In this document: in pieces, positions 1,438 to 10,290 of the stretch
How positions within the stretch are numbered: the first letter of the stretch is position 1
Layout: the number at the start of each line of letters is the position of its first letter
IMG/VR virus record: IMGVR_UViG_2711768000_000004
DNA from: a virus
Taxonomy: Duplodnaviria > Heunggongvirae > Uroviricota > Caudoviricetes
Direction: 5' to 3' (one strand)
Length of the DNA: 10,290 nt
The notes under the pieces: generated by a model
The model's database searches: none
Seen by the model: the letters and a program-made list of their open reading frames with translations, nothing else
Told to the model about the DNA's origin: nothing
Position numbers and translations under genes: made by a program

Positions 1438-3171
1438 TTAAAGCGAGCGGATCCCGTAGGACTCAATGTGGTCAGACAGCGTGTCTTCTTTCTCGTACAG
1501 CATGGCTCTGCCAACCGCCATAATCAGCGCAACTGCACCATCGATTTTGTTTTCCGCCTGCTCTTTGACGGGTTTCACCACATCATCGTTACCCGGCATG
1601 TTTTTGCCGACCACGTTGCCGATACACCAGGTCATGATGGGATTGCCGTCATGATGAAAACGTCCCGATTCAATCGCTGCTTCCAGCTCTTTCATCGGAT
1701 CGGACATATTGGTGAAGTTCTGGACGATAGTGACGGGATTCAGGTCTTCATCAGCAAGGTCATGTGACAACCCGGTCGCCCCGAAGGGGTCGATGGGTGA
1801 CTCACTGACCGGGCTGATTTTGTTCGCCGCTTTGGCCTCCTCGAGGATGTAGCGATAATCCACCTCCGCACCATCGGTAACGGTCAGAACGCCCATTTCC
1901 ACCCATTTCTGAAAGCGTTCGGCTGTCCGTCGATCTTCATTTTTCTCGACGCTGTACACCGTGTCATACGGTACCCAGAAACGCGGGGCCACACTGTAGT
2001 AATGCGTTTTACCGTCAATCTCGCGGGTATAAAGTCGCGCCATGCTGTTCATATCCAGCTTACGCGCCAGGTCAAAGGCCAGAATGCACGGCTGCCCCTC
2101 GAACTGCTCAAGGGTCAGTGATTTATCCTCGCAGCTCTGCCAGCTCACCAAGTTGAAATACGCCGAACGCGCCGACACCCAGATATTGAGGTGTTTTGTT
2201 TTAAAGACGTTTGCCAGACGGGCGTTATTTTTCGCACGCTGCTGCTGACTTAACAAAAATTCGCGATAAACCGACACGCCAATATTTGGATTGGCTTTTT
2301 CCAGCACCTGCGGGCCGGTCCAGTCGTCACCTTCATCAACGGTATAGATGATCCCGAACAGTTCATCGTTAGGCACCGAGCCGTTGAGCATCTCGATGAC
2401 TTCCCGCCGCTTGTCGTAGCACGGCCCCTCAATGTTGTACCCGGCGGTGGTGATGGCCCACATCAGTGGCTGACGTCGCGCCCCCATCCCGGTAAGCATT
2501 GTGGTATAAAGCGCATCGGTGGCATGCTCGTGATATTCATCAACCACGGCACAGTGGGGTGATGAACCATCACCTGGGTTGCCGATCAGCGGTTCAAACC
2601 GCGCGCCATCCTCCGGACGGTTCATGTTTGAGGCGTTAACCTCAATCCCGAACGCTTCCGTCAGCATGGGTGTGCGTTTACACATCAGTCGCGCCGGGCG
2701 AAAGACTTCCCACGCCTGTTTCTCTGTCGTGGCACCGGAATACACTTCCGCGCCAAACTCGTTATCACAGGCAAAACAATACAGGGCAACACCGGCAGAG
2801 ATTGCTGATTTGCCGTTCTTACGGGGGATTTCGGTGTACACCTCCCGGAAGCGGCGCAACCGGGTGCCTTTATTGACCCAGCCAAACGCACAGCAGATCA
2901 CAAATAGCTGCCACGGCTCCAGCGTGATGGGCATCCGTTTGAATGCCCACTCCCCCTTGGTGTGCGGCAACAGCTGAATAAATTTCGCGGCCCGTTCAGC
3001 CAGGTCCTTGTCGAAGCGGTAACGAAACGACTTACTTTTTTCCGCCATCAGGTCATCAAGATGGCGCTGGCAGGCCTGAATCACAAACTGGCAGGCAACA
3101 ATCTTTCCGCGCACGACATCCCGGGCATACTGATTTGCAGCATTTACGTTGGGGTAAGATTTCCGGCTCAT
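1438..3171 (-). CDS. Terminase large subunit (TerL)
   Basis: 577-aa ORF with Walker A-like PRKNGKS, an acidic VVDEYH motif and a C-terminal nuclease-like region. Its ATG (3171-3169) overlaps the upstream terS stop TGA in an ATGA arrangement. Confidence 0.95.
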
Positions 3172-3662
3172 GATTCGATAATTTTCAGAAACGGGTTAGT
3201 GGCTTTCTTCTGCCCCGCCAGGCCAATCAGACGCTGGCGGCTGCTGGGGTCGAGTCCGAGCATTGCCCCCGTGCTGCTCATCTCGGACTCCTGTTCTTTT
3301 TTGGCGGTCAGCTCCGGATTTTTGACCCTGCCGCCCATTGCACCGGTGATGGTGTTGCCCTGTATGGCAATATTTTTCACGGCACGTCGCCAGAACTCAT
3401 AGGCCACGCACCACCGCTCAAGTACCGCCAGGTCAGTCACGCACAGCAGGCCCTGACCGCAGAGTTCTTTGGTTGTCAGTTGCCACATGATCGTGGCGAG
3501 AGGGAGATCTTCTTCAGCGAACCACTCTGGTGGCTCAACACCTTTGATGGGCGTAAAAACAGGTTCATCTTTGTTCAGGGCTCGCTTGCCGGGGTTTCCG
3601 GCCAGCGCCTTGCGCGCCGTTGGCTTGGGGCGACGCCCGGAACGCCCCGCCGTTCCAGCCAT
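3168..3662 (-). CDS. Terminase small subunit (P27 family-like)
   Basis: ATG at 3662-3660 with AGGAG about 9 nt upstream. N-terminus [27 protein letters not shown] is typical of P27-type small terminase subunits. Sits between an HNH gene and terL, as in HK97-like packaging modules. Confidence 0.85.
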
Positions 3663-3671
3663 ATGCGGCAC

Positions 3672-3783
3672 TCCTGGTTAAATTTCATTTTTCGCGGGTA
3701 TAAAAAAACGATGGGGCGGGCAGTCCGGAAGACGTCAGGTCACAGGGATTTGCCCCGCCCCTCCCTACAAGTGAGAATAATTA
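3672..3783. other. Candidate cos / packaging-initiation region
   Basis: Intergenic region between the HNH gene and terS. GC-rich imperfect dyad GGGGCGGGCA (3713-3722) and TGCCCCGCCC (3751-3760) pairs at 8 of 10 positions and flanks a GACGTC-containing core. HK97-like phages place cos between HNH and terS. Confidence 0.3.
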
Positions 3784-4134
3784 TCACCGGATTCGTTCGC
3801 GCGCTGTTTTCGCTTTATGGCAGGGCCAGCACAGACTCTGCAGGTTGCTGTCTGCGTCTGTTCCGCCATGCGCTTTCGGGATGATGTGGTCGACGGTTTT
3901 CGCCTCGCTCACCACACCGACACGCAGACACAACTGACACAGACCTTTATCGCGCTTCAGAATACGGGCACGAATCACCGTCCATTTTGAGCCATAGCCA
4001 CGCTGGTGGCGGCTCAGTCCGCGCTGGTGCTGCACCCAGCCTTCACCGCGATGTTTATCGCAGTAACCCGAACTGTCTGTGGTTGTACCTGCACATCCAC
4101 GCTTACGGCAGGCACGTGGGATTAGTGATGGCAT
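3784..4134 (-). CDS. HNH homing endonuclease (packaging-associated)
   Basis: 116-aa ORF with Cys-rich CxxC pairs and an HNH core (DHIIPKAHGGTDADSNLQSLCWPCHKAKT). ATG at 4134-4132 with GAGGT upstream. Immediately precedes terS. Confidence 0.9.
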   Translation of the reverse strand: MPSLIPRACRKRGCAGTTTDSSGYCDKHRGEGWVQHQRGLSRHQRGYGSKWTVIRARILKRDKGLCQLCLRVGVVSEAKTVDHIIPKAHGGTDADSNLQSLCWPCHKAKTARERIR

Positions 4135-4176
4135 AAATACCTCATACCCTGCGAAATGTTTACCACGATAAAAAGG

Positions 4177-4641
4177 CTACTTAATGCACTGAGTGCGGAT
4201 ATACTCCTGTGCCCCTTCCAGTTGCATCTGCATCGTCATCAGCCGCTCTCTGAGGGTGAAATAATCCCGTTCAGCGGTGTCTGCCAGTCGGGGGCTGGTT
4301 GCATTATCCACGCCGGAGGCGGTGGTGGCTTCACGCACTGACTGACAGACTGCTTTGATGTGCAACCGACGACGACCAGCGGCAACATCAGCGCGCAGAG
4401 TTTCATTTTCAGCTTTCGCATCAGCTAACTCCTTCGTGTATTTAGCATCGAGTGCATTAACATCACGCTGTCTCTGCTGCATGTCAGTAATGGTTGCGTT
4501 CGCCAGCTTCAGTTCTCTTGCGTTTTTGTCGCGCTGCTCTTTGTAGGTAATGGCGTTATCACGGTAATGATTAACAGCCCATGACAGGCAGACGATGATG
4601 CAGATAACCAGAGCGGAGATAATCGCGGTGACTCTGCTCAT
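4177..4641 (-). CDS. Rz: Spanin inner-membrane subunit (i-spanin, Rz)
   Basis: Translation from [21 protein letters not shown] has an N-terminal TM segment then a coiled-coil periplasmic domain. It closely matches my recollection of DLP12 RzpD / phage 21 Rz. The ATG (4641-4639) overlaps the endolysin stop (ATGA). Confidence 0.85.
4239..4421 (-). CDS. Rz1: Spanin outer-membrane lipoprotein subunit (o-spanin, Rz1), embedded in Rz in an alternate frame
   Basis: [20 protein letters not shown] has a signal peptide and lipobox (VVGC) followed by a proline-rich PPPPPAW segment. The gene lies wholly inside Rz, the classic Rz/Rz1 arrangement. Confidence 0.8.
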
Positions 4642-5135
4642 TGCTGCCCCCACAAACAGACTTCACGCTCAATCTCACGACGGGTCATCAGCCCTTTCCA
4701 TTGCTTACCGCCAGCATATGTCCAGCGACGTAGCTGGTCACATGCGCCTTTGATATCGCCCTGGTTTATTTTGCGAAGAAGCGTCGATGTTCTGAAATTG
4801 CCAGCGCCCACGTTGTAAACGAACGAGTAAAGAGCGCCGCGCGTTGTTTCCGGTATATCGACTTTGATGTACGGGTTAATTTGTCTGGCGACAGTGGCAA
4901 GGTCTTTATTCAGGAGGGCTTTGCATTCTGCTTCGGTATACGTTTTACCGAGCATGATGTCTTTTCCGGTGTGTCCGTGACATACAGTCCATACACCAAT
5001 GATATCTTTGTATGGTATGTAGCTGACACCTTCCAGACCATCGTTACCACCTGGGCCAGTGATTAACACAGATGCTATAGCAACAGCCCCACCACCAATA
5101 GCAGCTGCAACAGCCTTGCGTAATGATGGCGACAT
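4638..5135 (-). CDS. SAR endolysin (lysozyme, phage 21 R / DLP12 RrrD-like)
   Basis: 165 aa. N-terminal signal-anchor-release segment [20 protein letters not shown], then a lysozyme core with E-D-T catalytic residues ([11 protein letters not shown]...[10 protein letters not shown]). Near-identical to my recollection of RrrD / R21. ATG at 5135-5133 with GAGGTG upstream. Confidence 0.9.
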
Positions 5136-5157
5136 TATTCACCTCTCGCAGCCTTAC
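5135..5157 (-). pseudogene. 3'-terminal remnant (last 7 codons plus stop) of a pinholin gene (S21/EssD-like), truncated by IS2
   Basis: Minus strand reads (C)GT AAG GCT GCG AGA GGT GAA TAA, i.e. K-A-A-R-G-E-stop. This matches the C-terminus ...REDRRKAARGE of S21/EssD as I recall it, with the usual TAATG overlap onto the endolysin start. The rest of the gene is replaced by IS2 starting at 5158. Confidence 0.55.
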
Positions 5158-5677
5158 TAGACTGGCCCCCTGAATCTCCAGACAACCAGTATCACTTAAA
5201 TAAGTGATAGTCTTAATACTAGTTTTTAGACTAGTCATTGGAGTACAGATGATTGATGTCTTAGGGCCGGAGAAACGCAGACGGCGTACCACACAGGAAA
5301 AGATCGCAATTGTTCAGCAGAGCTTTGAACCGGGGATGACGGTCTCCCTCGTTGCCCGGCAACATGGTGTATACGGAGAAGCACATCCGTATCATCAGTG
5401 TGACGACTGCGGCGGCCATCCATCCAGTCATCGGTTCGTCTGAGAATGACGTGCAACTGCGCACGCGACACCCGGAGACAACGGCTGACTAAGCTTACTC
5501 CCCATCCCCGGGCAATAAGGGCGCGTGCGCTATCCACTTTTTTGCCCGTCCATATTCAACGGCTTCTTTGAGGAGTTCATTTTCCATCGTTTTCTTGCCG
5601 AGCAGGCGCTGGAGTTCTTTAATCTGCTTCATGGCGGCAGCAAGTTCAGAGGCAGGAACAACCTGTTCTCCGGCGGC
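5158..5677 (+). mobile_element. IS2 (IS3 family) fragment with aberrant structure
   Basis: 5158 onward matches the IS2 left inverted repeat (TAGACTGGCCCCCTGAATCTCCAGACAACCA...) and the orfA start (ATG 5249, [41 protein letters not shown]). After about 5371 the sequence becomes the reverse complement of internal IS2: the minus strand encodes the InsC C-terminus and InsD N-terminus ([59 protein letters not shown]). The fragment ends at the N run. Confidence 0.8.
5249..5371 (+). pseudogene. IS2 orfA (InsC) N-terminal fragment, 41 codons, then sequence diverges
   Basis: In-frame match to the IS2 InsC N-terminus. Reading frame leaves IS2 orfA after ...ARQHGV at the junction near 5361-5371. Confidence 0.7.
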
Positions 5678-5712
5678 NNNNNNNNNNNNNNNNNNNNNNN
5701 NNNNNNNNNNNN
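5678..5712. other. Unresolved sequence (35 N)
   Basis: Run of n characters; assembly gap or masking. Confidence 1.
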
Positions 5713-5774
5713 CGATTTTGATATCGGGCCATTAAAAAAGATCGCGTAGCATTCTTAATTCATGAGGAACTTTA

Positions 5775-5839
5775 CCCGCCAGCAATCTGAGTAGCGAAAG
5801 CTGTTCATCCCCAATGTTTTTGCTGGCGGGTCCTTTTTT
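5775..5839 (+). terminator. Plus-strand terminator-like stem-loop with T tract
   Basis: ACCCGCCAGCAA (5775-5786) pairs with TTGCTGGCGGGT (5820-5831) around a 33-nt loop, followed by CCTTTTTT. Orientation is opposite to the phage genes. A plus-strand reading frame ends ...DFDIGPLKKIA-stop at 5749 just upstream. Confidence 0.35.
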
Positions 5840-6278
5840 CTACGGTCCTCCTCCCCGGAGGGGGGCATTTCATTATTTTTCTAATCGTTACTGGTGAGAA
5901 GGCGGAAGAAAAAGCCAGTTCTTCGCCCCTAAATAACAGCATGATTCCAGTCCATGCAAAATCTGATTTCCAGCTCACACATACCGAGCACTGTACAAAA
6001 AACCGCCAGCCAAGGCAGTTAAGAGTGTGTTCCCGGGGTTTGCTTAGAATATTTTGTAAGTTGTCCGAAGAGATATTTACAACACCAGAATGATGAATCA
6101 TCAGTCCCCTGCCAGAGGTTCACTACGTAACCTGACCGACAATGCACCATTCTGGTGCTGAAAAAAGAGCACTGGAACTGCAACAAAACAACATCACAGA
6201 ACAGGAGATGGTAAGGAGTCAGACATTCCCACACAATATTGTGTCAGTGCAAATAACAACCTTCGTCTCAAATCTCGC

Positions 6279-6353
<75 letters not shown>

Positions 6354-6356
6354 ATA

Positions 6357-6432
<76 letters not shown>

Positions 6433-6434
6433 GC

Positions 6435-6511
6435 TGGCCCACCACCGAGGACTCGAACCTCGCACCGTCAACTTAGAAGGTTGATGCTCTATCCGGATGA
6501 GCTAGTGGTGG
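6435..6511 (-). tRNA. tRNA-Arg (anticodon UCU), argN-like
   Basis: CCACCACTAGCTCATCCGGATAGAGCATCAACCTTCTAAGTTGACGGTGCGAGGTTCGAGTCCTCGGTGGTGGGCCA. Acceptor stem CCACCAC/GTGGTGG, anticodon stem TCAAC/GTTGA with loop CTTCTAA, T arm CGAGG-TTCGAGT-CCTCG, encoded CCA. Confidence 0.85.
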
Positions 6512-6512
6512 T

Positions 6513-6589
6513 TGGTGGCCCTTGCTGGACTTGAACCAGCGACCTGGCGATTATGAGTCGCTCGCTCTGACCAACTGAGCTAAAGGGCC
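6513..6589 (-). tRNA. tRNA with CAU anticodon (Ile2/lysidine type, ileX/ileZ-like; Met not excluded)
   Basis: GGCCCTTTAGCTCAGTTGGTCAGAGCGAGCGACTCATAATCGCCAGGTCGCTGGTTCAAGTCCAGCAAGGGCCACCA. Anticodon loop CTCATAA. Very similar to my recollection of E. coli ileX. Encoded CCA; a 27-43 A-C mispair in the anticodon stem. Confidence 0.8.
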
Positions 6590-6600
6590 GGAGGCAGAAT

Positions 6601-6629
6601 AATAACCATATGTCATCACATCTGCAAAC
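6601..6629 (-). promoter_or_regulatory. Candidate sigma70 promoter for the tRNA cluster
   Basis: Minus strand TTGCAG (6629-6624), 17 bp, TATTAT (6606-6601). The first tRNA 5' end (6589) lies about 12 nt downstream of the -10. Confidence 0.4.
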
Positions 6630-6677
6630 TCATCTGACCACCAGCACGTTTAACGTCCTGTGCCGTTTTTCAGGTAT

Positions 6678-6703
6678 AAAAAAACCCGCTCATCGGCGGG
6701 TTT
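6678..6703 (-). terminator. Rho-independent terminator (minus strand) upstream of the tRNA cluster
   Basis: Minus strand AAACCCGC-cgatga-GCGGGTTT followed by TTTTTTTA. Stem is 5-8 bp, loop 6 nt, T tract at 6684-6678. Confidence 0.55.
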
Positions 6704-6773
6704 AAGCTGTGTGGCGTAGTAACCACTCTTAACAGGATATTCAACTTTTTACGATCGTAAAGTTTTCGGAAAA

Positions 6774-6934
6774 NNNNNNNNNNNNNNNNNNNNNNNNNNN
6801 NNNNNNNNNNNNNNNNNNNNNNNNNNNNNNNNNNNNNNNNNNNNNNNNNNNNNNNNNNNNNNNNNNNNNNNNNNNNNNNNNNNNNNNNNNNNNNNNNNNN
6901 NNNNNNNNNNNNNNNNNNNNNNNNNNNNNNNNNN
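6774..6934. other. Unresolved sequence (161 N)
   Basis: Run of n characters inside or just downstream of the ORF6N-domain gene. Confidence 1.
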
Positions 6935-7252
6935 CCACGCCTGATCGGTTTCGAGCATTTTGGCGTGACGGGCTGCGCCACGTTCTGTCCAGAGGATGAG
7001 GGAGCGAACGTTACGGGCAATTTTCACAGAAACTCTTAAAGAGTTTTCGTTCTTCAACTCTCGTAACGCATCACCTTCTATCAGGAAAAAATGTTTACCT
7101 TCTATAAACCGTTCTTTGTTTCGATTGAAATTGTTTGTCAAACGCTGGCGCTCTGTTCCGTACAAATCAGCCAGCAGCTCTGTTGTCATGACAGGAAGAT
7201 GGTTATGCGTAAGTGACGGGAGTTTTTCAATAGACGTGCGATTCATAGACAT
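6935..7252 (-). CDS. ORF6N-domain protein (KilA-N/ORF6N-type phage DNA-binding, antirepressor-like), 3' end lost in N gap
   Basis: ATG at 7252-7250 with AAAGGA upstream. The 105 aa before the gap (MSMNRTSIEKLPSLTHNHLPVMTTELLADLYGTERQRLTNNFNRNKERFIEGKHFFLIEGDALRELK...RSLILWTERGAARHAKML) resemble the ORF6N domain pattern as I recall it. Confidence 0.55.
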
Positions 7253-7389
7253 GTCCTTTCGAATATTTTGATTTACCCCTTTTGAGAGGGTGACCGGGCG
7301 CTCAAAACCGTCGAAAGTCGGCGGGCGTATTTCCATTGCTGGTATTGTATTAGCCGCACACCCGGTCATAAACCAAGAATTCTGGACAC

Positions 7390-7417
7390 AAAAAAACCAC
7401 ATGGCTATCGGGTGTGG
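7390..7417 (-). terminator. Terminator/attenuator-like hairpin in the leader of the ORF6N gene
   Basis: Minus strand CCACA-cccgatagcca-TGTGG followed by TTTTTTT (7396-7390). Lies about 30 nt downstream of the second promoter. Confidence 0.45.
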
Positions 7418-7452
7418 ATACCGCTTTCGAGGTGTTTTGAGCACCGCGGGGA

Positions 7453-7481
7453 AATGTAAACTGCAAACCTGAAACTGTCAA
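7453..7481 (-). promoter_or_regulatory. Near-consensus sigma70 promoter (second module)
   Basis: Minus strand TTGACA (7481-7476), 17 bp, TACATT (7458-7453). Confidence 0.5.
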
Positions 7482-7607
7482 CACCGTCAGGTTCCAATCA
7501 TCGGGTGGTGAGACGCACAGGGTTGGAACTACCGGGAAACCGACCGGCGAGCTTTTCAGCTCCCCCATGCGCCCCACCATAATTCAGATGTGCGCGTGCA
7601 TACGACA

Positions 7608-7630
7608 ATAAAAAACACGCTCGCGGCGTG
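7608..7630 (-). terminator. Rho-independent terminator, candidate tR'
   Basis: Minus strand ACACGC-cgcga-GCGTGT followed by TTTTTATT. About 75 nt downstream of the promoter that abuts Q. Confidence 0.6.
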
Positions 7631-7692
7631 TGTCTGTCGCGGTCTCTATCCGGGGTTCCAATCCCGACGCCAGATTTTGCTGGCGCGTGAGG

Positions 7693-7722
7693 AATATAGC
7701 CCCGGACAATGTGTCTGGTCAA
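7693..7722 (-). promoter_or_regulatory. Candidate late promoter PR' with adjoining Q-utilisation region
   Basis: Minus strand TTGACC (7722-7717) begins 5 nt after the Q stop codon; -10 TATATT (7698-7693) at an 18-bp spacing. Initial transcribed region forms the hairpin CGCCAG-caaaat-CTGGCG. Position matches PR' in lambdoid phages. Confidence 0.55.
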
Positions 7723-7726
7723 GCAC

Positions 7727-8113
7727 CTACATAATTCGTTCTACGTATCTGTCCATCTCCAGCCGGATATCAAGCATCATCAACATGCCATCAATAACCC
7801 CTTCCGCTTTCTGCAGGCGCTTGCCAATACAGGTATCCGAACACCCATGTTTCCGTGCCAGACTCATAAAAGTCATTCCACCTACGTAATAATCCACCAG
7901 CAAATCGTGCAAATCCTGATTTTTCTTGTTCAACCGGGCCATACAGCCACAAATTATCATTGCATCATCATCAGAACACTGAGGGCGTGATTTCACTTTC
8001 GACGGAATTAACCCTTTAAAACCAGCAGCGATCGACGCCCAGGATACATCTTCATGAGTGTTTGCAGCCCAAGCCCCCCACCGTTCCATAACCTGCTGAA
8101 TATCACGCGCCAT
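7727..8113 (-). CDS. Q: Late-gene antiterminator Q (QuuD / DLP12-type)
   Basis: [61 protein letters not shown]... closely matches E. coli QuuD as I recall it. ATG at 8113-8111 with AGGTGA upstream; overlaps the rusA 3' end. Confidence 0.9.
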
Positions 8114-8474
8114 CGTTATCACCTGTGATTTCATAAATCTTCACGCCCAGTCGCCCACCAGGAACGAGCTGACCGCGCACAATATTGATTTCATCAAACT
8201 GCTCGTCGTCTATGAGTAGTCCGGCATGCGTCAGCGCATCCAGTGGTGCTTTCAGGATATTGTCCAGGTCACGACGGCGCTTATCCGGTGGCTCTGCAAT
8301 AATCTTTATCGCCAGCCTTCCGGACAGGTTTAATTTCAGCCGCTGCTGGCGAACAATTAGCGTCACATCACGGCGATAACGCTCACCAACTTTTGATACA
8401 AAATATGTGCTGCCACGACGTCGCCAGTAAGTATTCACCGTCGGCGGATAAGGTAAAATAAACTCATGGCGCAT
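8103..8474 (-). CDS. rusA: Holliday-junction resolvase RusA
   Basis: 123 aa, [21 protein letters not shown]...[24 protein letters not shown], typical RusA. Start ATG (8474-8472) overlaps the upstream gene stop (ATGA). Confidence 0.95.
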
Positions 8475-8727: not shown

Positions 8728-10119
8728 TCAAAAGAAACGCTCCATCTTACTGCTGTCGGTACGTGTATTGCTGTATCTGCGCGGCTGGGGCTGCCGCATT
8801 GGGGTGGAAAGAACCTGTGCGCTTTCCTGGTCCACAGGCAGAAAATGTCCGTTATAAAAACGCCGGTAAATCGTCCCCAGAGAACCGTTACGTTGTTTCG
8901 TGATATTAATTTCTGCTATGCCTGTAGCCTGTGTATCCGGGTTGTACACTTCATCCCTGTAAAGCATCAGAATGATGTCTGCATCCGCCTCTATTTCTCC
9001 GGAATTTTTCAGGTCTGAGTTCATGGGACGTTTATTGGGTCTGGACTCCACACCGCGGGAGAGCTGGCTCAGCGCAATCAACGGAAAACCACCGGATTTT
9101 GCCAGGCCTTTAAGCCCCTTTGAGATTTCACCCACGGCAAGGTCATGACGCCCCGTGGTTCGGGTTTTTATCAGCCCGAGATAATCAACCACCACCAGCG
9201 CCGTTTCCGGATGTTTAATCAGATGGTGTTTCGTTGTTGCGCATATCTCATCAATGGTCAGGTTCGCCTGGTCCACCATCCAGATATTGCGCCCGGTCAT
9301 CCGCCCCACCCCTTGTGAGAAACGCGCCCAGTCTTCATCTTCAAAGTGAGCCACAGATTTCAGGCGTGATACTGGCATCCCTCCAGCCGCAGACACCATA
9401 CGTTCACCAATCTGGATGTTCGCCATCTCCATGGTGAACAGAAGCACACCATGCCCCTGCTCAGTCACCTTGTCGATGATGTCCAGCGCAAGTTCGGTTT
9501 TCCCCATCGAAGGACGGGCGGCAATGAATACCAGGTCTCCGGGCTCCATACCGCCTGTTTTTGCGTCCAGTTCATCAATACCGGTCATCAACGTCCTGGA
9601 TTTCTCCAGCCCCTGATTCCGGCATTCAACACGCTCAACCACTTCCGGAAGCACATCATCAATATGTACCGGCTGAATGACGCCCTTTCCTGTCGACAGT
9701 GTGACCATCATGTTCTGCGCATCCTTCAGGGCATCTTCAGCTGCTTCACAGGTATGCGCATCACGTAATTTCTGCAGCGCCTCATTCAGTGTTTTTTCTG
9801 CATCGCGCAGTGCGGCATTGCGCCGCAACGCTGCAACATAGTGCTCCAGTGAAGACTTCACCCAGGTTTTACGCCCGGTATCAGTAATCACCGGGGCAAG
9901 TTCCGGCATCTCATTACACAACAGCACGGGGTCAATCACTCCTGAAACACGGGCCTGTCTGCAGATGCCTGTGTAGATATCCCGATACGCTCGTACAGAA
10001 AAAATGTCCGCCGGTAGTGTGATCAGAATATCCATCACTTCATGATCTGCCCCACGCAGAAAGAATGCGCCAATGACAGCGCCTTCCAGGTCATCATTAC
10101 GCCAGACTGGTGTTGTCAT
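8728..10119 (-). CDS. Replicative DNA helicase, DnaB family (phage-encoded)
   Basis: 463-aa product with DnaB N-terminal domain, Walker A (ARPSMGKTELALD), Walker B / arginine-finger region (ADADIILMLYRDEVYNPD) and KRPMNSDLKNSGEIE. ATG at 10119-10117 with GAGGTG upstream. The six-frame ORF extends to 10260 only because it runs into IS2. Confidence 0.9.
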   Translation of the reverse strand: MTTPVWRNDDLEGAVIGAFFLRGADHEVMDILITLPADIFSVRAYRDIYTGICRQARVSGVIDPVLLCNEMPELAPVITDTGRKTWVKSSLEHYVAALRRNAALRDAEKTLNEALQKLRDAHTCEAAEDALKDAQNMMVTLSTGKGVIQPVHIDDVLPEVVERVECRNQGLEKSRTLMTGIDELDAKTGGMEPGDLVFIAARPSMGKTELALDIIDKVTEQGHGVLLFTMEMANIQIGERMVSAAGGMPVSRLKSVAHFEDEDWARFSQGVGRMTGRNIWMVDQANLTIDEICATTKHHLIKHPETALVVVDYLGLIKTRTTGRHDLAVGEISKGLKGLAKSGGFPLIALSQLSRGVESRPNKRPMNSDLKNSGEIEADADIILMLYRDEVYNPDTQATGIAEINITKQRNGSLGTIYRRFYNGHFLPVDQESAQVLSTPMRQPQPRRYSNTRTDSSKMERFF

Positions 10120-10222: not shown

Positions 10223-10290
10223 CTGGATTTGCCCCTATATTTCCAGACACCTGTTATCACTTAACCCATTACTGGCTTGCTGCCGTAGAT
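10223..10290 (-). mobile_element. IS2 right end (IRR and 3' end of orfB); element body continues beyond the window
   Basis: Reverse complement of 10223-10290 reads ...CGGCAGCAAGCCAGTAATGGGTTAAGTGATAACAGGTGTCTGGAAATATAGGGGCAAATCCA, the IS2 orfB C-terminus (...NGLSDNRCLEI-stop) and terminal repeat as I recall them. Confidence 0.75.

What the first reader, a model, noticed from the sequence alone, without database searches (positions are those of the whole stretch)
5158..5712. Aberrant IS2 structure: forward left end joined to an inverted internal segment at an 11-bp repeat, then an N gap
5158 to about 5371 is IS2 in forward orientation. From there to 5677 the sequence is the reverse complement of an internal IS2 segment (InsC C-terminus and InsD N-terminus are encoded on the minus strand). 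The junction lies in AACATGGTGTA (5361-5371), which occurs in both orientations within IS2. This is either a real intra-IS inversion or deletion, or a repeat-induced misassembly. The adjacent N run and the second IS2 copy at 10223 make the artefact explanation quite plausible.
Basis: partly seen in the sequence, partly recalled or inferred. Interest (0 to 1): 0.45.

Follow-up and report, generated by a model that had tools for sequence, protein, structure and literature searches.

The report
Misassembled IS2 copy in draft contig
The odd "half-forward, half-backward" IS2 insertion sequence is really written in this database contig, but it is almost certainly a false join made while a short-read draft genome was assembled, not a rearrangement in the bacterium.

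Summary
Window 5158-5371 is IS2 bases 1-214 forward. Window 5361-5677 is IS2 591-275 reverse-complemented. The two share AACATGGTGTA, the only internal inverted repeat of 11 bp or more in IS2. A 35-N gap follows.

The window is a whole draft contig, CWVC01000142.1 (GCA_001254475.1). The same junction occurs in six other NCBI draft assemblies, at different chromosomal sites and in different IS2 subtypes. In five of them the contig ends inside the reversed arm. It is absent from about 27,800 IS2 matches in 5,426 closed E. coli genomes, and from the plasmid, phage, IMG/VR, GTDB and JGI collections searched. At three of those sites, closed genomes with 100% identical flanks carry a normal full-length IS2.

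The other edge of the N gap carries a second false-looking join. Sixteen bases of the chromosomal usher gene yqiG are fused to phage DNA through another 11-bp overlap.

Closed genomes with the identical prophage have no IS2 here. They have 323 bp of holin sequence that the contig lacks.

Verdict: assembly or gap-filling artefact around a probably real IS2 insertion in a prophage holin gene. Low interest.

The parts
4638..5135 (-). Prophage endolysin gene rrrD (165 aa). This is the unique left flank of the IS2 insertion.
   Evidence: ORF and translation; Pfam Phage_lysozyme; 100% identical to closed genomes.
5136..5157 (-). Last 22 nt of the class II holin gene, cut off by the IS2 left end.
   Evidence: Alignment to empty-site relatives L004 and L023 stops at 5157. 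The holin is annotated immediately upstream of rrrD.
5158..5371 (+). IS2 left end, bases 1-214 (IRL plus the first 41 codons of insC). It starts exactly at the IS2 terminus, so it probably marks a real strain-specific insertion.
   Evidence: 99.07%; mismatches at IS2 32 and 87.
5361..5371 (.). 11-nt overlap AACATGGTGTA shared by both arms. It equals IS2 204-214 and the reverse complement of 581-591. This is the false-join point.
5372..5677 (-). IS2 bases 580->275 in reverse complement (insD N-terminus and insC C-terminus on the minus strand). This is the fold-back arm, probably sequence from other IS2 copies.
   Evidence: 100% identity.
5249..5443 (+). Chimeric 64-aa ORF across the junction (InsC residues 1-41 followed by 23 out-of-context residues). 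It is useful as a search handle for the artefact.
   Evidence: The exact protein is found in 7 NCBI draft assemblies.
5678..5712 (.). 35-N scaffold gap. Its length is an estimate, not a measurement.
   Evidence: The other N run (161 N) stands for 257 nt in closed relatives.
5713..5739 (+). 27-nt exact match to the chromosomal fimbrial usher gene yqiG. Bases 5713-5728 are foreign to the phage. Bases 5729-5739 (CCATTAAAAAA) are shared by yqiG and the phage. This is a second 11-nt-overlap chimeric join.
   Evidence: Phage homology starts at 5729.
5729..6773 (-). Prophage DNA upstream of the holin (98-aa ORF and four tRNA genes). This is the right flank.
   Evidence: 99.9% identical to closed relatives; tRNAs.
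6774..6934 (.). Second scaffold gap, 161 N.
   Evidence: It corresponds to 257 nt in closed relatives.
10224..10290 (-). Right end (bases 1331->1265) of a second IS2 copy of a different subtype. The contig ends inside it.
   Evidence: 91% to K-12 IS2; 100% to the CP025842 variant.

Best explanation
The structure exists in the database record but not, as a consensus structure, in the genome.

The isolate most likely carries an ordinary 1.3-kb IS2 inserted in the 3' end of the holin gene of a lambdoid prophage, 22 nt upstream of the endolysin start. IS2 is multi-copy in this genome, with at least two subtypes visible in the window, so the short-read assembler could not walk through it.

During scaffolding or gap filling, the contig end inside IS2 (at base 214) was continued with sequence from the opposite strand of IS2 (from base 591 backwards). 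The join went through the only 11-nt inverted repeat in the element. The opposite gap edge was likewise joined, through an unrelated 11-nt match, to a few bases of yqiG. In a sister assembly yqiG sits next to another IS2 copy. The rest stayed as Ns, and the true 323 bp of holin sequence plus about 1.1 kb of IS2 were lost.

Shown:
- the exact breakpoints;
- recurrence only in draft assemblies;
- canonical IS2 at identical sites in closed genomes;
- the second chimeric join;
- that N lengths are only estimates.

Inferred:
- which step made the join. It was either a greedy overlap rule (for example GapFiller closes a gap on an overlap of 10 nt or more) or rare fold-back chimeric library molecules formed at this inverted repeat and then followed by the assembler;
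- that the flank/IRL junction at 5157/5158 is a real insertion.
For: 1. The window is the complete draft contig CWVC01000142.1 of GCA_001254475.1.

2. The exact 64-aa ORF spanning the junction is on record in 7 NCBI draft assemblies, with 5 different flanks among the 6 whose short arm abuts unique DNA (L013's abuts an N run). The IS2 parts carry 0, 1, 2, 2, 2, 5 and 5 mismatches to K-12 IS2. All have IS2 1-214 joined to the reverse complement of 591 onwards.

3. In 5 of the 7 the contig ends inside the reversed arm (at IS2 195, 343, 419, 465, 465). In the window the arm ends at an N gap. In L013 an N run abuts the short arm.

4. None of about 27,800 IS2 matches in 5,426 closed E. coli genomes has the junction in one piece. 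The two places with at least 80% coverage are nested or adjacent IS2 copies. The same holds for 4,939 plasmid matches and for phages. The 34-mer across the junction has 0 exact matches in IMG/VR, the GTDB representatives and the JGI metagenomes.

5. For three of the sites, closed genomes are 100% identical to the draft over 3,014 nt (flank plus IS2 1-214) and then continue as a canonical full-length IS2. The drafts depart exactly after base 214. The pairs are L017 and L015 against CM143725, L018 against CP068041, and L014 against CP030111.

6. Window 5713-5739 is a 27/27 match to chromosomal yqiG, fused to phage DNA through the 11-nt CCATTAAAAAA. This overlap is AT-rich and too weak for physical annealing, but it is enough for a string-overlap rule.

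7. L013 is another ENA-accessioned draft with a neighbouring accession number and the same IS2 SNPs. In L013 an IS2 sits in yqiG in the orientation that places this 27-mer 86 nt beyond the IS2 left end. Window 5372-5739 is therefore collinear with that other IS2 locus.

8. Closed genomes with the same prophage are 100% identical on both sides. They have no IS2, they have 323 bp that the window lacks, and they have 257 nt where the window has 161 N.

9. GapFiller closes gaps on an overlap of 10 nt or more. The Sanger pipeline feeds SSPACE and GapFiller only the non-properly-paired reads and states that these greedy tools can make false joins. Chimeric reads at inverted repeats are a documented library artefact.
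Against: - No raw reads could be examined, so the true sequence at this locus in this isolate was not seen.
- No closed genome has an IS2 at this particular holin site, so the 'canonical IS2 here' part rests on analogy.
- An 11-nt overlap is far below de Bruijn k-mer sizes. Two sibling arms are exactly 127 nt, and one arm (L019) carries read-like errors near its end. This suggests that junction-containing molecules physically existed in some libraries. I cannot say whether they arose in the tube or in a minority of cells.
- I could not reconstruct how a 29-nt-overlap extension would add just 16 nt of yqiG next to an unfilled gap.
- That this assembly went through SSPACE and GapFiller is inferred from its ENA-type accession and its variable-length N runs. 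It is not documented (one search found no paper).
Confidence: 0.87

Rival explanations
1. A real, fixed rearrangement in this isolate made by two replication template switches (MMBIR/FoSTeS-like). Synthesis inside the holin-borne IS2 stops at base 214. It re-primes through the 11-nt inverted repeat on another IS2 copy (the one in yqiG), copies IS2 580->1 and about 100 nt of yqiG, then switches back through CCATTAAAAAA to the phage 323 bp downstream. The net result is a deletion of about 1.45 kb replaced by an inverted templated insertion of about 0.68 kb. The N gap would simply hide the repetitive part.
For: - Both junctions have microhomology, and the inserted block is collinear with one donor locus of the L013 type.
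- The path returns to the same phage locus.
- This reading would explain the missing 323 bp of holin.
Against: - The identical IS2 junction recurs in six other drafts, where closed relatives have normal IS2.
- It is never seen in closed genomes.
- CCATTAAAAAA is a very weak primer.
- The contig would be expected to carry more than 16 nt of yqiG at its edge.
- Whether this isolate has the yqiG::IS2 donor was not verified (led nowhere).
Confidence: 0.08
2. A simple in vivo inversion of IS2 segment 215-580 by recombination between the two 11-bp inverted repeats, leaving a full-length but scrambled IS2.
For: - The breakpoint lies exactly in the inverted repeat pair.
- The window's arm stops at 275, so it is formally compatible.
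Against: - In sibling contigs with the same junction the reversed arm runs through the inner repeat copy and on to IS2 195 (L014) or to base 1 (L013). It does not turn back into 592 onwards.
- No closed genome shows such an inversion.
Confidence: 0.02
3. A mobile, non-autonomous IS2 derivative (about 794 bp: IS2 1-214 plus the reverse complement of 591-1, so two left ends) that transposes to new sites with help from intact copies.
For: - L013 shows the complete 1-214 / 591->1 unit ending at an IS2 terminus on both sides.
- The unit is seen at several genomic sites.
Against: - The units sit in different IS2 subtypes.
- They occupy exactly the sites where closed relatives have full-length IS2.
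- The element is absent from all closed genomes and plasmids searched.
- IS2 transposition needs an IRR-IRL junction (PMC3299598, seen).
Confidence: 0.01

Closest known systems
Canonical IS2 (IS3 family, 1331 bp; insC/insD with a programmed frameshift)
   Same: Both arms are IS2 sequence at 99-100% identity. The left arm starts at the exact IRL terminus next to unique DNA, as a real insertion would.
   Different: Only bases 1-214 and 275-591 are present, and the second block is reversed. There is no IRR, no intact transposase and no visible 5-bp target duplication.
False joins by greedy scaffolders and gap fillers (SSPACE, GapFiller) and contig-end misassemblies in short-read drafts
   Same: - The joins sit at a gap edge.
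- They go through overlaps just above GapFiller's default closure threshold of 10 nt.
- The gap lengths are wrong.
- Sequence is recruited from another copy of the repeat.
- The pipeline authors themselves warn of false joins.
   Different: I could not show which program produced this contig. The same junction also appears in assemblies that look like products of a different assembler (arms of 127 nt).
Fold-back or inverted-repeat chimeric reads from library preparation (PDSM model, PMC10908179)
   Same: The read goes forward to one copy of an inverted repeat and continues as the reverse complement from the other copy, which is exactly the topology seen here.
   Different: The phenomenon was described for human capture libraries. 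Here the evidence is indirect, because no reads were seen. It would not explain the yqiG/phage join.
Nested or head-to-head IS2 copies in closed genomes (for example Shigella dysenteriae plasmid CP026806, E. coli PSJ-16)
   Same: Forward and reverse IS2 sequence lie next to each other.
   Different: Those junctions are at IS2 termini, with a target duplication and complete elements. None is at 214|591.

Membership tests
Canonical IS2 element | Full length of about 1331 bp, bounded by IRL and IRR | tested here: not met
   Only IS2 1-214 and 591-275 are present. There is no IRR before the phage sequence resumes.
Canonical IS2 element | Intact insC-insD (orfA/orfB) reading frames on one strand | tested here: not met
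   InsC is cut after codon 41 and fused to 23 foreign residues. The InsD N-terminus lies on the opposite strand.
Canonical IS2 element | 5-bp target-site duplication | not testable with these tools
   The right end is missing from the record (N gap at 5678-5712). The expected duplication is CTTAC.
Assembly or gap-filling artefact | The junction is confined to draft assemblies and lies at contig ends or gap edges | tested here: met
   7 of 7 occurrences are in drafts. In 5 the contig ends inside the reversed arm, in the window the arm ends at an N gap, and in L013 an N run abuts the short arm. There are 0 single-piece occurrences in closed E. coli genomes, plasmids or phages.
Assembly or gap-filling artefact | Independent closed assemblies of the same locus show the normal structure | tested here: inconclusive
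   This is met for three sibling sites. For the window's own site, the closed relatives have no IS2 at all, so the normal structure in this isolate is inferred.
Assembly or gap-filling artefact | Other signs of misassembly at the same place | tested here: met
   A yqiG 27-mer is fused to phage DNA through an 11-nt overlap at the other gap edge. 323 bp of unique holin sequence are missing. 161 N stand for 257 nt.
Assembly or gap-filling artefact | Raw reads do not support the junction at single-copy depth | not testable with these tools
   No read data are available.
Inversion between short inverted repeats | After the inverted segment the sequence resumes forward at IS2 592 | tested here: inconclusive
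   The window's arm stops at 275. In siblings L014 and L013 the arm continues to 195 and to 1 instead, which does not meet the feature.

The most novel reading that the evidence does not exclude
The isolate really carries a microhomology-mediated, two-step templated insertion. The holin-borne IS2 is truncated at base 214 and continued with an inverted copy of IS2 580-1 plus about 100 nt of yqiG, copied from a second IS2 locus. It rejoins the phage 323 bp downstream. That would be a bacterial MMBIR-like event nucleated at the only 11-bp inverted repeat of IS2. The recurrent junction in other drafts would then reflect low-level in vivo fold-back molecules at that repeat.
Probability: 0.08. Interest if true: 0.45.

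Novelty: not a real feature. Interest (0 to 1): 0.08.

Why it matters
There is little biological interest. The likely truth is an ordinary IS2 insertion that knocks out the holin of a prophage.

The practical value is as a warning. The same false IS2 fold-back, and the 64-aa chimeric "transposase" ORF it creates, are deposited in at least seven public draft genomes. They could be mistaken for IS2 variants, inversions or novel small ORFs.

The junction (IS2 214 joined to the reverse complement of 591 through AACATGGTGTA) can be screened for directly. Finding it at contig ends shows that sequence next to scaffold gaps in repeat-rich genomes should not be interpreted without the reads.

Tried and rejected
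1. I tested whether the arm ends are set by SNPs between IS2 subtypes.
   - Polymorphic sites at 214 (CP025842 variant) and 592 (CP080127 variant) flank the repeat, which looked promising.
   - The SNP patterns of the seven contigs differ. The arithmetic 87 + 127 = 214 fits only some of them. I dropped this as an explanation.

2. I searched for the junction as a real structure and found nothing.
   - I used a 101-nt junction query against closed E. coli genomes, plasmids and phages.
   - I used an exact 34-mer in IMG/VR, GTDB representatives and JGI metagenomes.
   - The few high-coverage hits are nested or adjacent IS2 copies.

3. I checked hits that joined rrrD and IS2 in closed genomes. These are IS2 copies in bor or nested in rrrD, not this site.

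4. K-12 could not serve as the truth for L018. L018 lacks the K-12 IS2I insertion and has IS2 elsewhere in yqiG. The closed genome CP068041 served instead.

5. I tried to show that the window's own lineage has IS2 in yqiG in the L013 orientation.
   - No closed E. coli genome has that insertion in one piece.
   - A protein search with the truncated usher returned no exact representative that could be traced to contigs.
   - This remains unverified.

6. The 32-mer joining yqiG and phage is absent from IMG/VR.

7. No paper mentioning the assembly accessions was found.

8. The minus-strand 100-aa chimeric ORF is not on record anywhere.

Full report
**What is in the sequence**

I aligned the window with IS2A of E. 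coli K-12 (NC_000913 381260-382590, 1331 bp).

- Window 5158-5371 is IS2 1-214 forward (99.07%).
- Window 5361-5677 is IS2 591->275 reverse-complemented (100%).
- The two alignments overlap in AACATGGTGTA (5361-5371).
- An exhaustive k-mer comparison of IS2 with its own reverse complement shows that this 11-mer pair (204-214 / 581-591) is the only internal inverted repeat of 11 bp or more in the element. The breakpoint is therefore homology-directed, not random.
- The 35-N run (5678-5712) follows. There is a second N run of 161 at 6774-6934.
- Window 10224-10290 is the right end of another IS2 in reverse orientation. It belongs to a different subtype: 6 mismatches in 67 nt to K-12, and 100% identity to the copy in CP025842.

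**Context**

The minus strand carries a lambdoid prophage. In order it has portal, terminase, HNH, Rz, the endolysin rrrD (4638-5135), then four tRNA genes, Q, RusA and a DnaB-like helicase.

The IS2 left terminus abuts unique DNA 22 nt upstream of the rrrD start, inside the 3' end of the class II holin gene. The join is at the exact IS2 terminus without any overlap, so I take this flank/IRL junction as a real insertion. This is an inference.

**Where the window comes from, and the key result**

The junction creates a 64-aa chimeric ORF: InsC residues 1-41 followed by 23 unrelated residues. An exact-sequence look-up finds this protein on seven contigs of seven NCBI draft assemblies. One of them, CWVC01000142.1 of GCA_001254475.1, is the window itself in full length.

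Alignment of all seven to IS2 shows the identical join, 1-214 followed by the reverse complement from 591.

- In the six contigs whose short arm abuts unique DNA there are five different chromosomal flanks: pdeL, csiD-gab twice, yqiG, this prophage, and one other. In L013 the short arm abuts an N run and the long arm abuts a second prophage.
- The IS2 parts carry 0 to 5 differences from K-12, so the join arose repeatedly.
- In five contigs the contig simply ends inside the reversed arm (at IS2 195, 343, 419, 465, 465).
- In the window the arm ends at the N gap.
- In L013 the unit is 1-214 plus 591->1, with an N run on its other side.
- Where the arm is long enough (L014, L013) it runs through the inner repeat copy and onwards. 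The topology is therefore a fold-back, an inverted duplication of the IS2 left end. It is not an inversion of 215-580.

**Absence from finished sequence**

- A 101-nt query centred on the junction hits 27,847 IS2 places in 5,426 closed E. coli genomes. It never hits in one piece. The two places with at least 80% coverage are an IS2 next to a truncated IS2, and an IS2 nested in an IS2.
- Plasmids (4,939 places) give only three two-piece hits, from a nested IS2 on Shigella dysenteriae plasmids. Phages give none.
- The 34-mer across the junction has no exact match in IMG/VR, in one genome per GTDB species, or in JGI metagenomes.

**Closed genomes at the same sites**

For three of the sites I found closed genomes with the same IS2 insertion.

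- L017 and L015 (csiD flank) match CM143725 at 100% and 99.93% respectively.
- L018 (yqiG flank) matches CP068041 at 100%.
- L014 (pdeL flank) matches CP030111 at 100%.
- Each match runs over 3,014 nt, that is, 2.8 kb of flank plus IS2 1-214.
- In each case the closed genome continues as a full-length IS2, while the draft turns back at base 214.

This is the nearest available substitute for long reads, and it says the fold-back is not the genomic structure there.

**The window's own locus**

An exact look-up of its RrrD protein retrieved closed chromosomes of about 4.8 Mb: CP104423.1, LR213449.1, CP151372.1 and CP049183.1. They compare with the window as follows.

- They are 100% identical to window 1638-5157 and 6935-8287, and 99.9% identical to 5729-6773.
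- They have no IS2 in the holin.
- Between the positions matching window 5157 and 5729 they have 323 bp, the rest of the holin gene and its upstream region. These 323 bp are missing from the window.
- Where the window has 161 N they have 257 nt.

The N lengths are therefore estimates, and the scaffold is unreliable around both gaps.

**A second false-looking join**

The 16 bases right after the N gap (5713-5728) do not belong to the phage. Together with the next 11 bases they are a 27/27 match to the chromosomal fimbrial usher gene yqiG. The phage homology starts at 5729 with CCATTAAAAAA, an 11-mer that yqiG and the phage happen to share.

Both edges of the gap therefore consist of foreign sequence attached through an 11-nt overlap. 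The second overlap is so AT-rich that physical annealing is implausible, whereas a string-matching rule would accept it.

L013 is another ENA-accessioned draft with a neighbouring accession number and the same IS2 SNPs (32G, 87T). In L013 an IS2 sits in yqiG in the orientation that puts this 27-mer 86 nt beyond the IS2 left end. Window 5372-5739 (reverse complement of IS2 580-275, gap, yqiG 27-mer) is thus collinear with another IS2 locus. This is what one expects if read pairs from another IS2 copy were used to fill this gap. I could not verify that the window's isolate has that yqiG insertion.

**Mechanism**

What is documented:

- GapFiller extends gap edges base by base and declares a gap closed when the two extensions overlap by at least 10 nt (default n = 10). 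It trims contig edges because they are error-prone.
- The Sanger high-throughput pipeline runs 16 rounds of SSPACE and 120 of GapFiller. It uses only reads that did not map as proper pairs. It states that these greedy tools can make false joins.
- Fold-back chimeric reads at inverted repeats are a known library artefact.

What is inferred:

- This assembly went through such a pipeline. This rests on its ENA-type accession and its variable N runs.
- The 214|591 join came either from a rule accepting overlaps of 10 nt or more, or from rare fold-back molecules whose k-mers the assembler followed once proper IS2 reads were unavailable or ambiguous.

Some siblings hint that physical chimeric molecules existed in some libraries. 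Two arms are exactly 127 nt, which from my own knowledge is the largest k commonly used by SPAdes. One arm (L019) carries read-like errors at its tip. Either way the multi-copy nature of IS2 and its single 11-nt inverted repeat explain why the same join recurs.

Canonical IS2 transposition joins IRR to IRL, through a figure-of-eight and a minicircle (PMC3299598 and PMC3219604, seen). It does not generate internal 214|591 joins.

**Rivals**

- A real double template switch (MMBIR-like) using a yqiG::IS2 donor would give the same order and orientation and would explain the missing holin. It would have to coincide with a junction that is demonstrably artefactual elsewhere, and it predicts more yqiG sequence at the contig edge. 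I give it about 0.08.
- A simple inversion is contradicted by the sibling topology (about 0.02).
- A mobile two-left-end mini-IS2 is contradicted by its absence from all closed genomes and by its occupying the sites of full-length copies (about 0.01).

**Verdict**

The feature is not real biology. Interest is low. The only practical lesson is that this chimeric IS2 junction and its 64-aa ORF are a recurrent contaminant of public draft assemblies.

Noticed in passing
window 5713-5739: A 27-nt exact match to the chromosomal usher gene yqiG is fused to prophage DNA through a shared 11-mer, CCATTAAAAAA. This is a second chimeric join at the other edge of the N gap.
   Followed up: yes
L013-L019 (NCBI drafts GCA_001256155.1, GCA_020085915.1, GCA_003546115.1, GCA_045753715.1, GCA_902807285.1, GCA_020085615.1): The same IS2 214|rc591 junction and the same 64-aa chimeric ORF are deposited in six other draft genomes. 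In five the contig ends inside the reversed arm, and two arms are exactly 127 nt long.
   Followed up: yes
window 6774-6934: The second scaffold gap has 161 N where closed genomes with the identical prophage have 257 nt. At least one independent draft contig of relatives (L028) also ends at about window 6773, which suggests a repeat there.
   Followed up: partly
window 5136-5157 and the missing 323 bp: If the IS2 insertion is real, it truncates the class II holin 22 nt before the endolysin start and would disable lysis by this prophage. Closed relatives have the holin intact.
   Followed up: partly
window 10224-10290: A second IS2 of a diverged subtype lies about 100 nt upstream of the DnaB-like helicase gene (gene call 8728-10119). 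It has 6 differences in 67 nt from K-12 IS2 and is identical to the copy in CP025842. It presumably interrupts the DnaC-like loader gene seen in relatives. The contig ends inside it.
   Followed up: partly
IS2 positions 214 and 592 (L012 = CP025842 copy; L011 = CP080127 plasmid copy): Natural IS2 subtypes are polymorphic exactly at the two outer edges of the 11-bp inverted repeat. The change 214 A>G shortens it to 10 bp. The change 592 A>G lengthens it to 12 bp, the kind of change that quasi-palindrome template switching produces.
   Followed up: no
L013 8560-10703: The sister scaffold places a complete IS2, 19 N, and then the fold-back unit head to head between yqiG and an unrelated prophage. 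This looks like another IS2-induced false scaffold join.
   Followed up: partly
window 6279-6589: There are four prophage tRNA genes on the minus strand (Gly-TCC, Thr-TGT, Arg-TCT and a CAT-anticodon tRNA). ARAGORN calls the last one Met, while RefSeq annotates it as Ile in relatives (probably the lysidine-modified Ile2 type).
   Followed up: no
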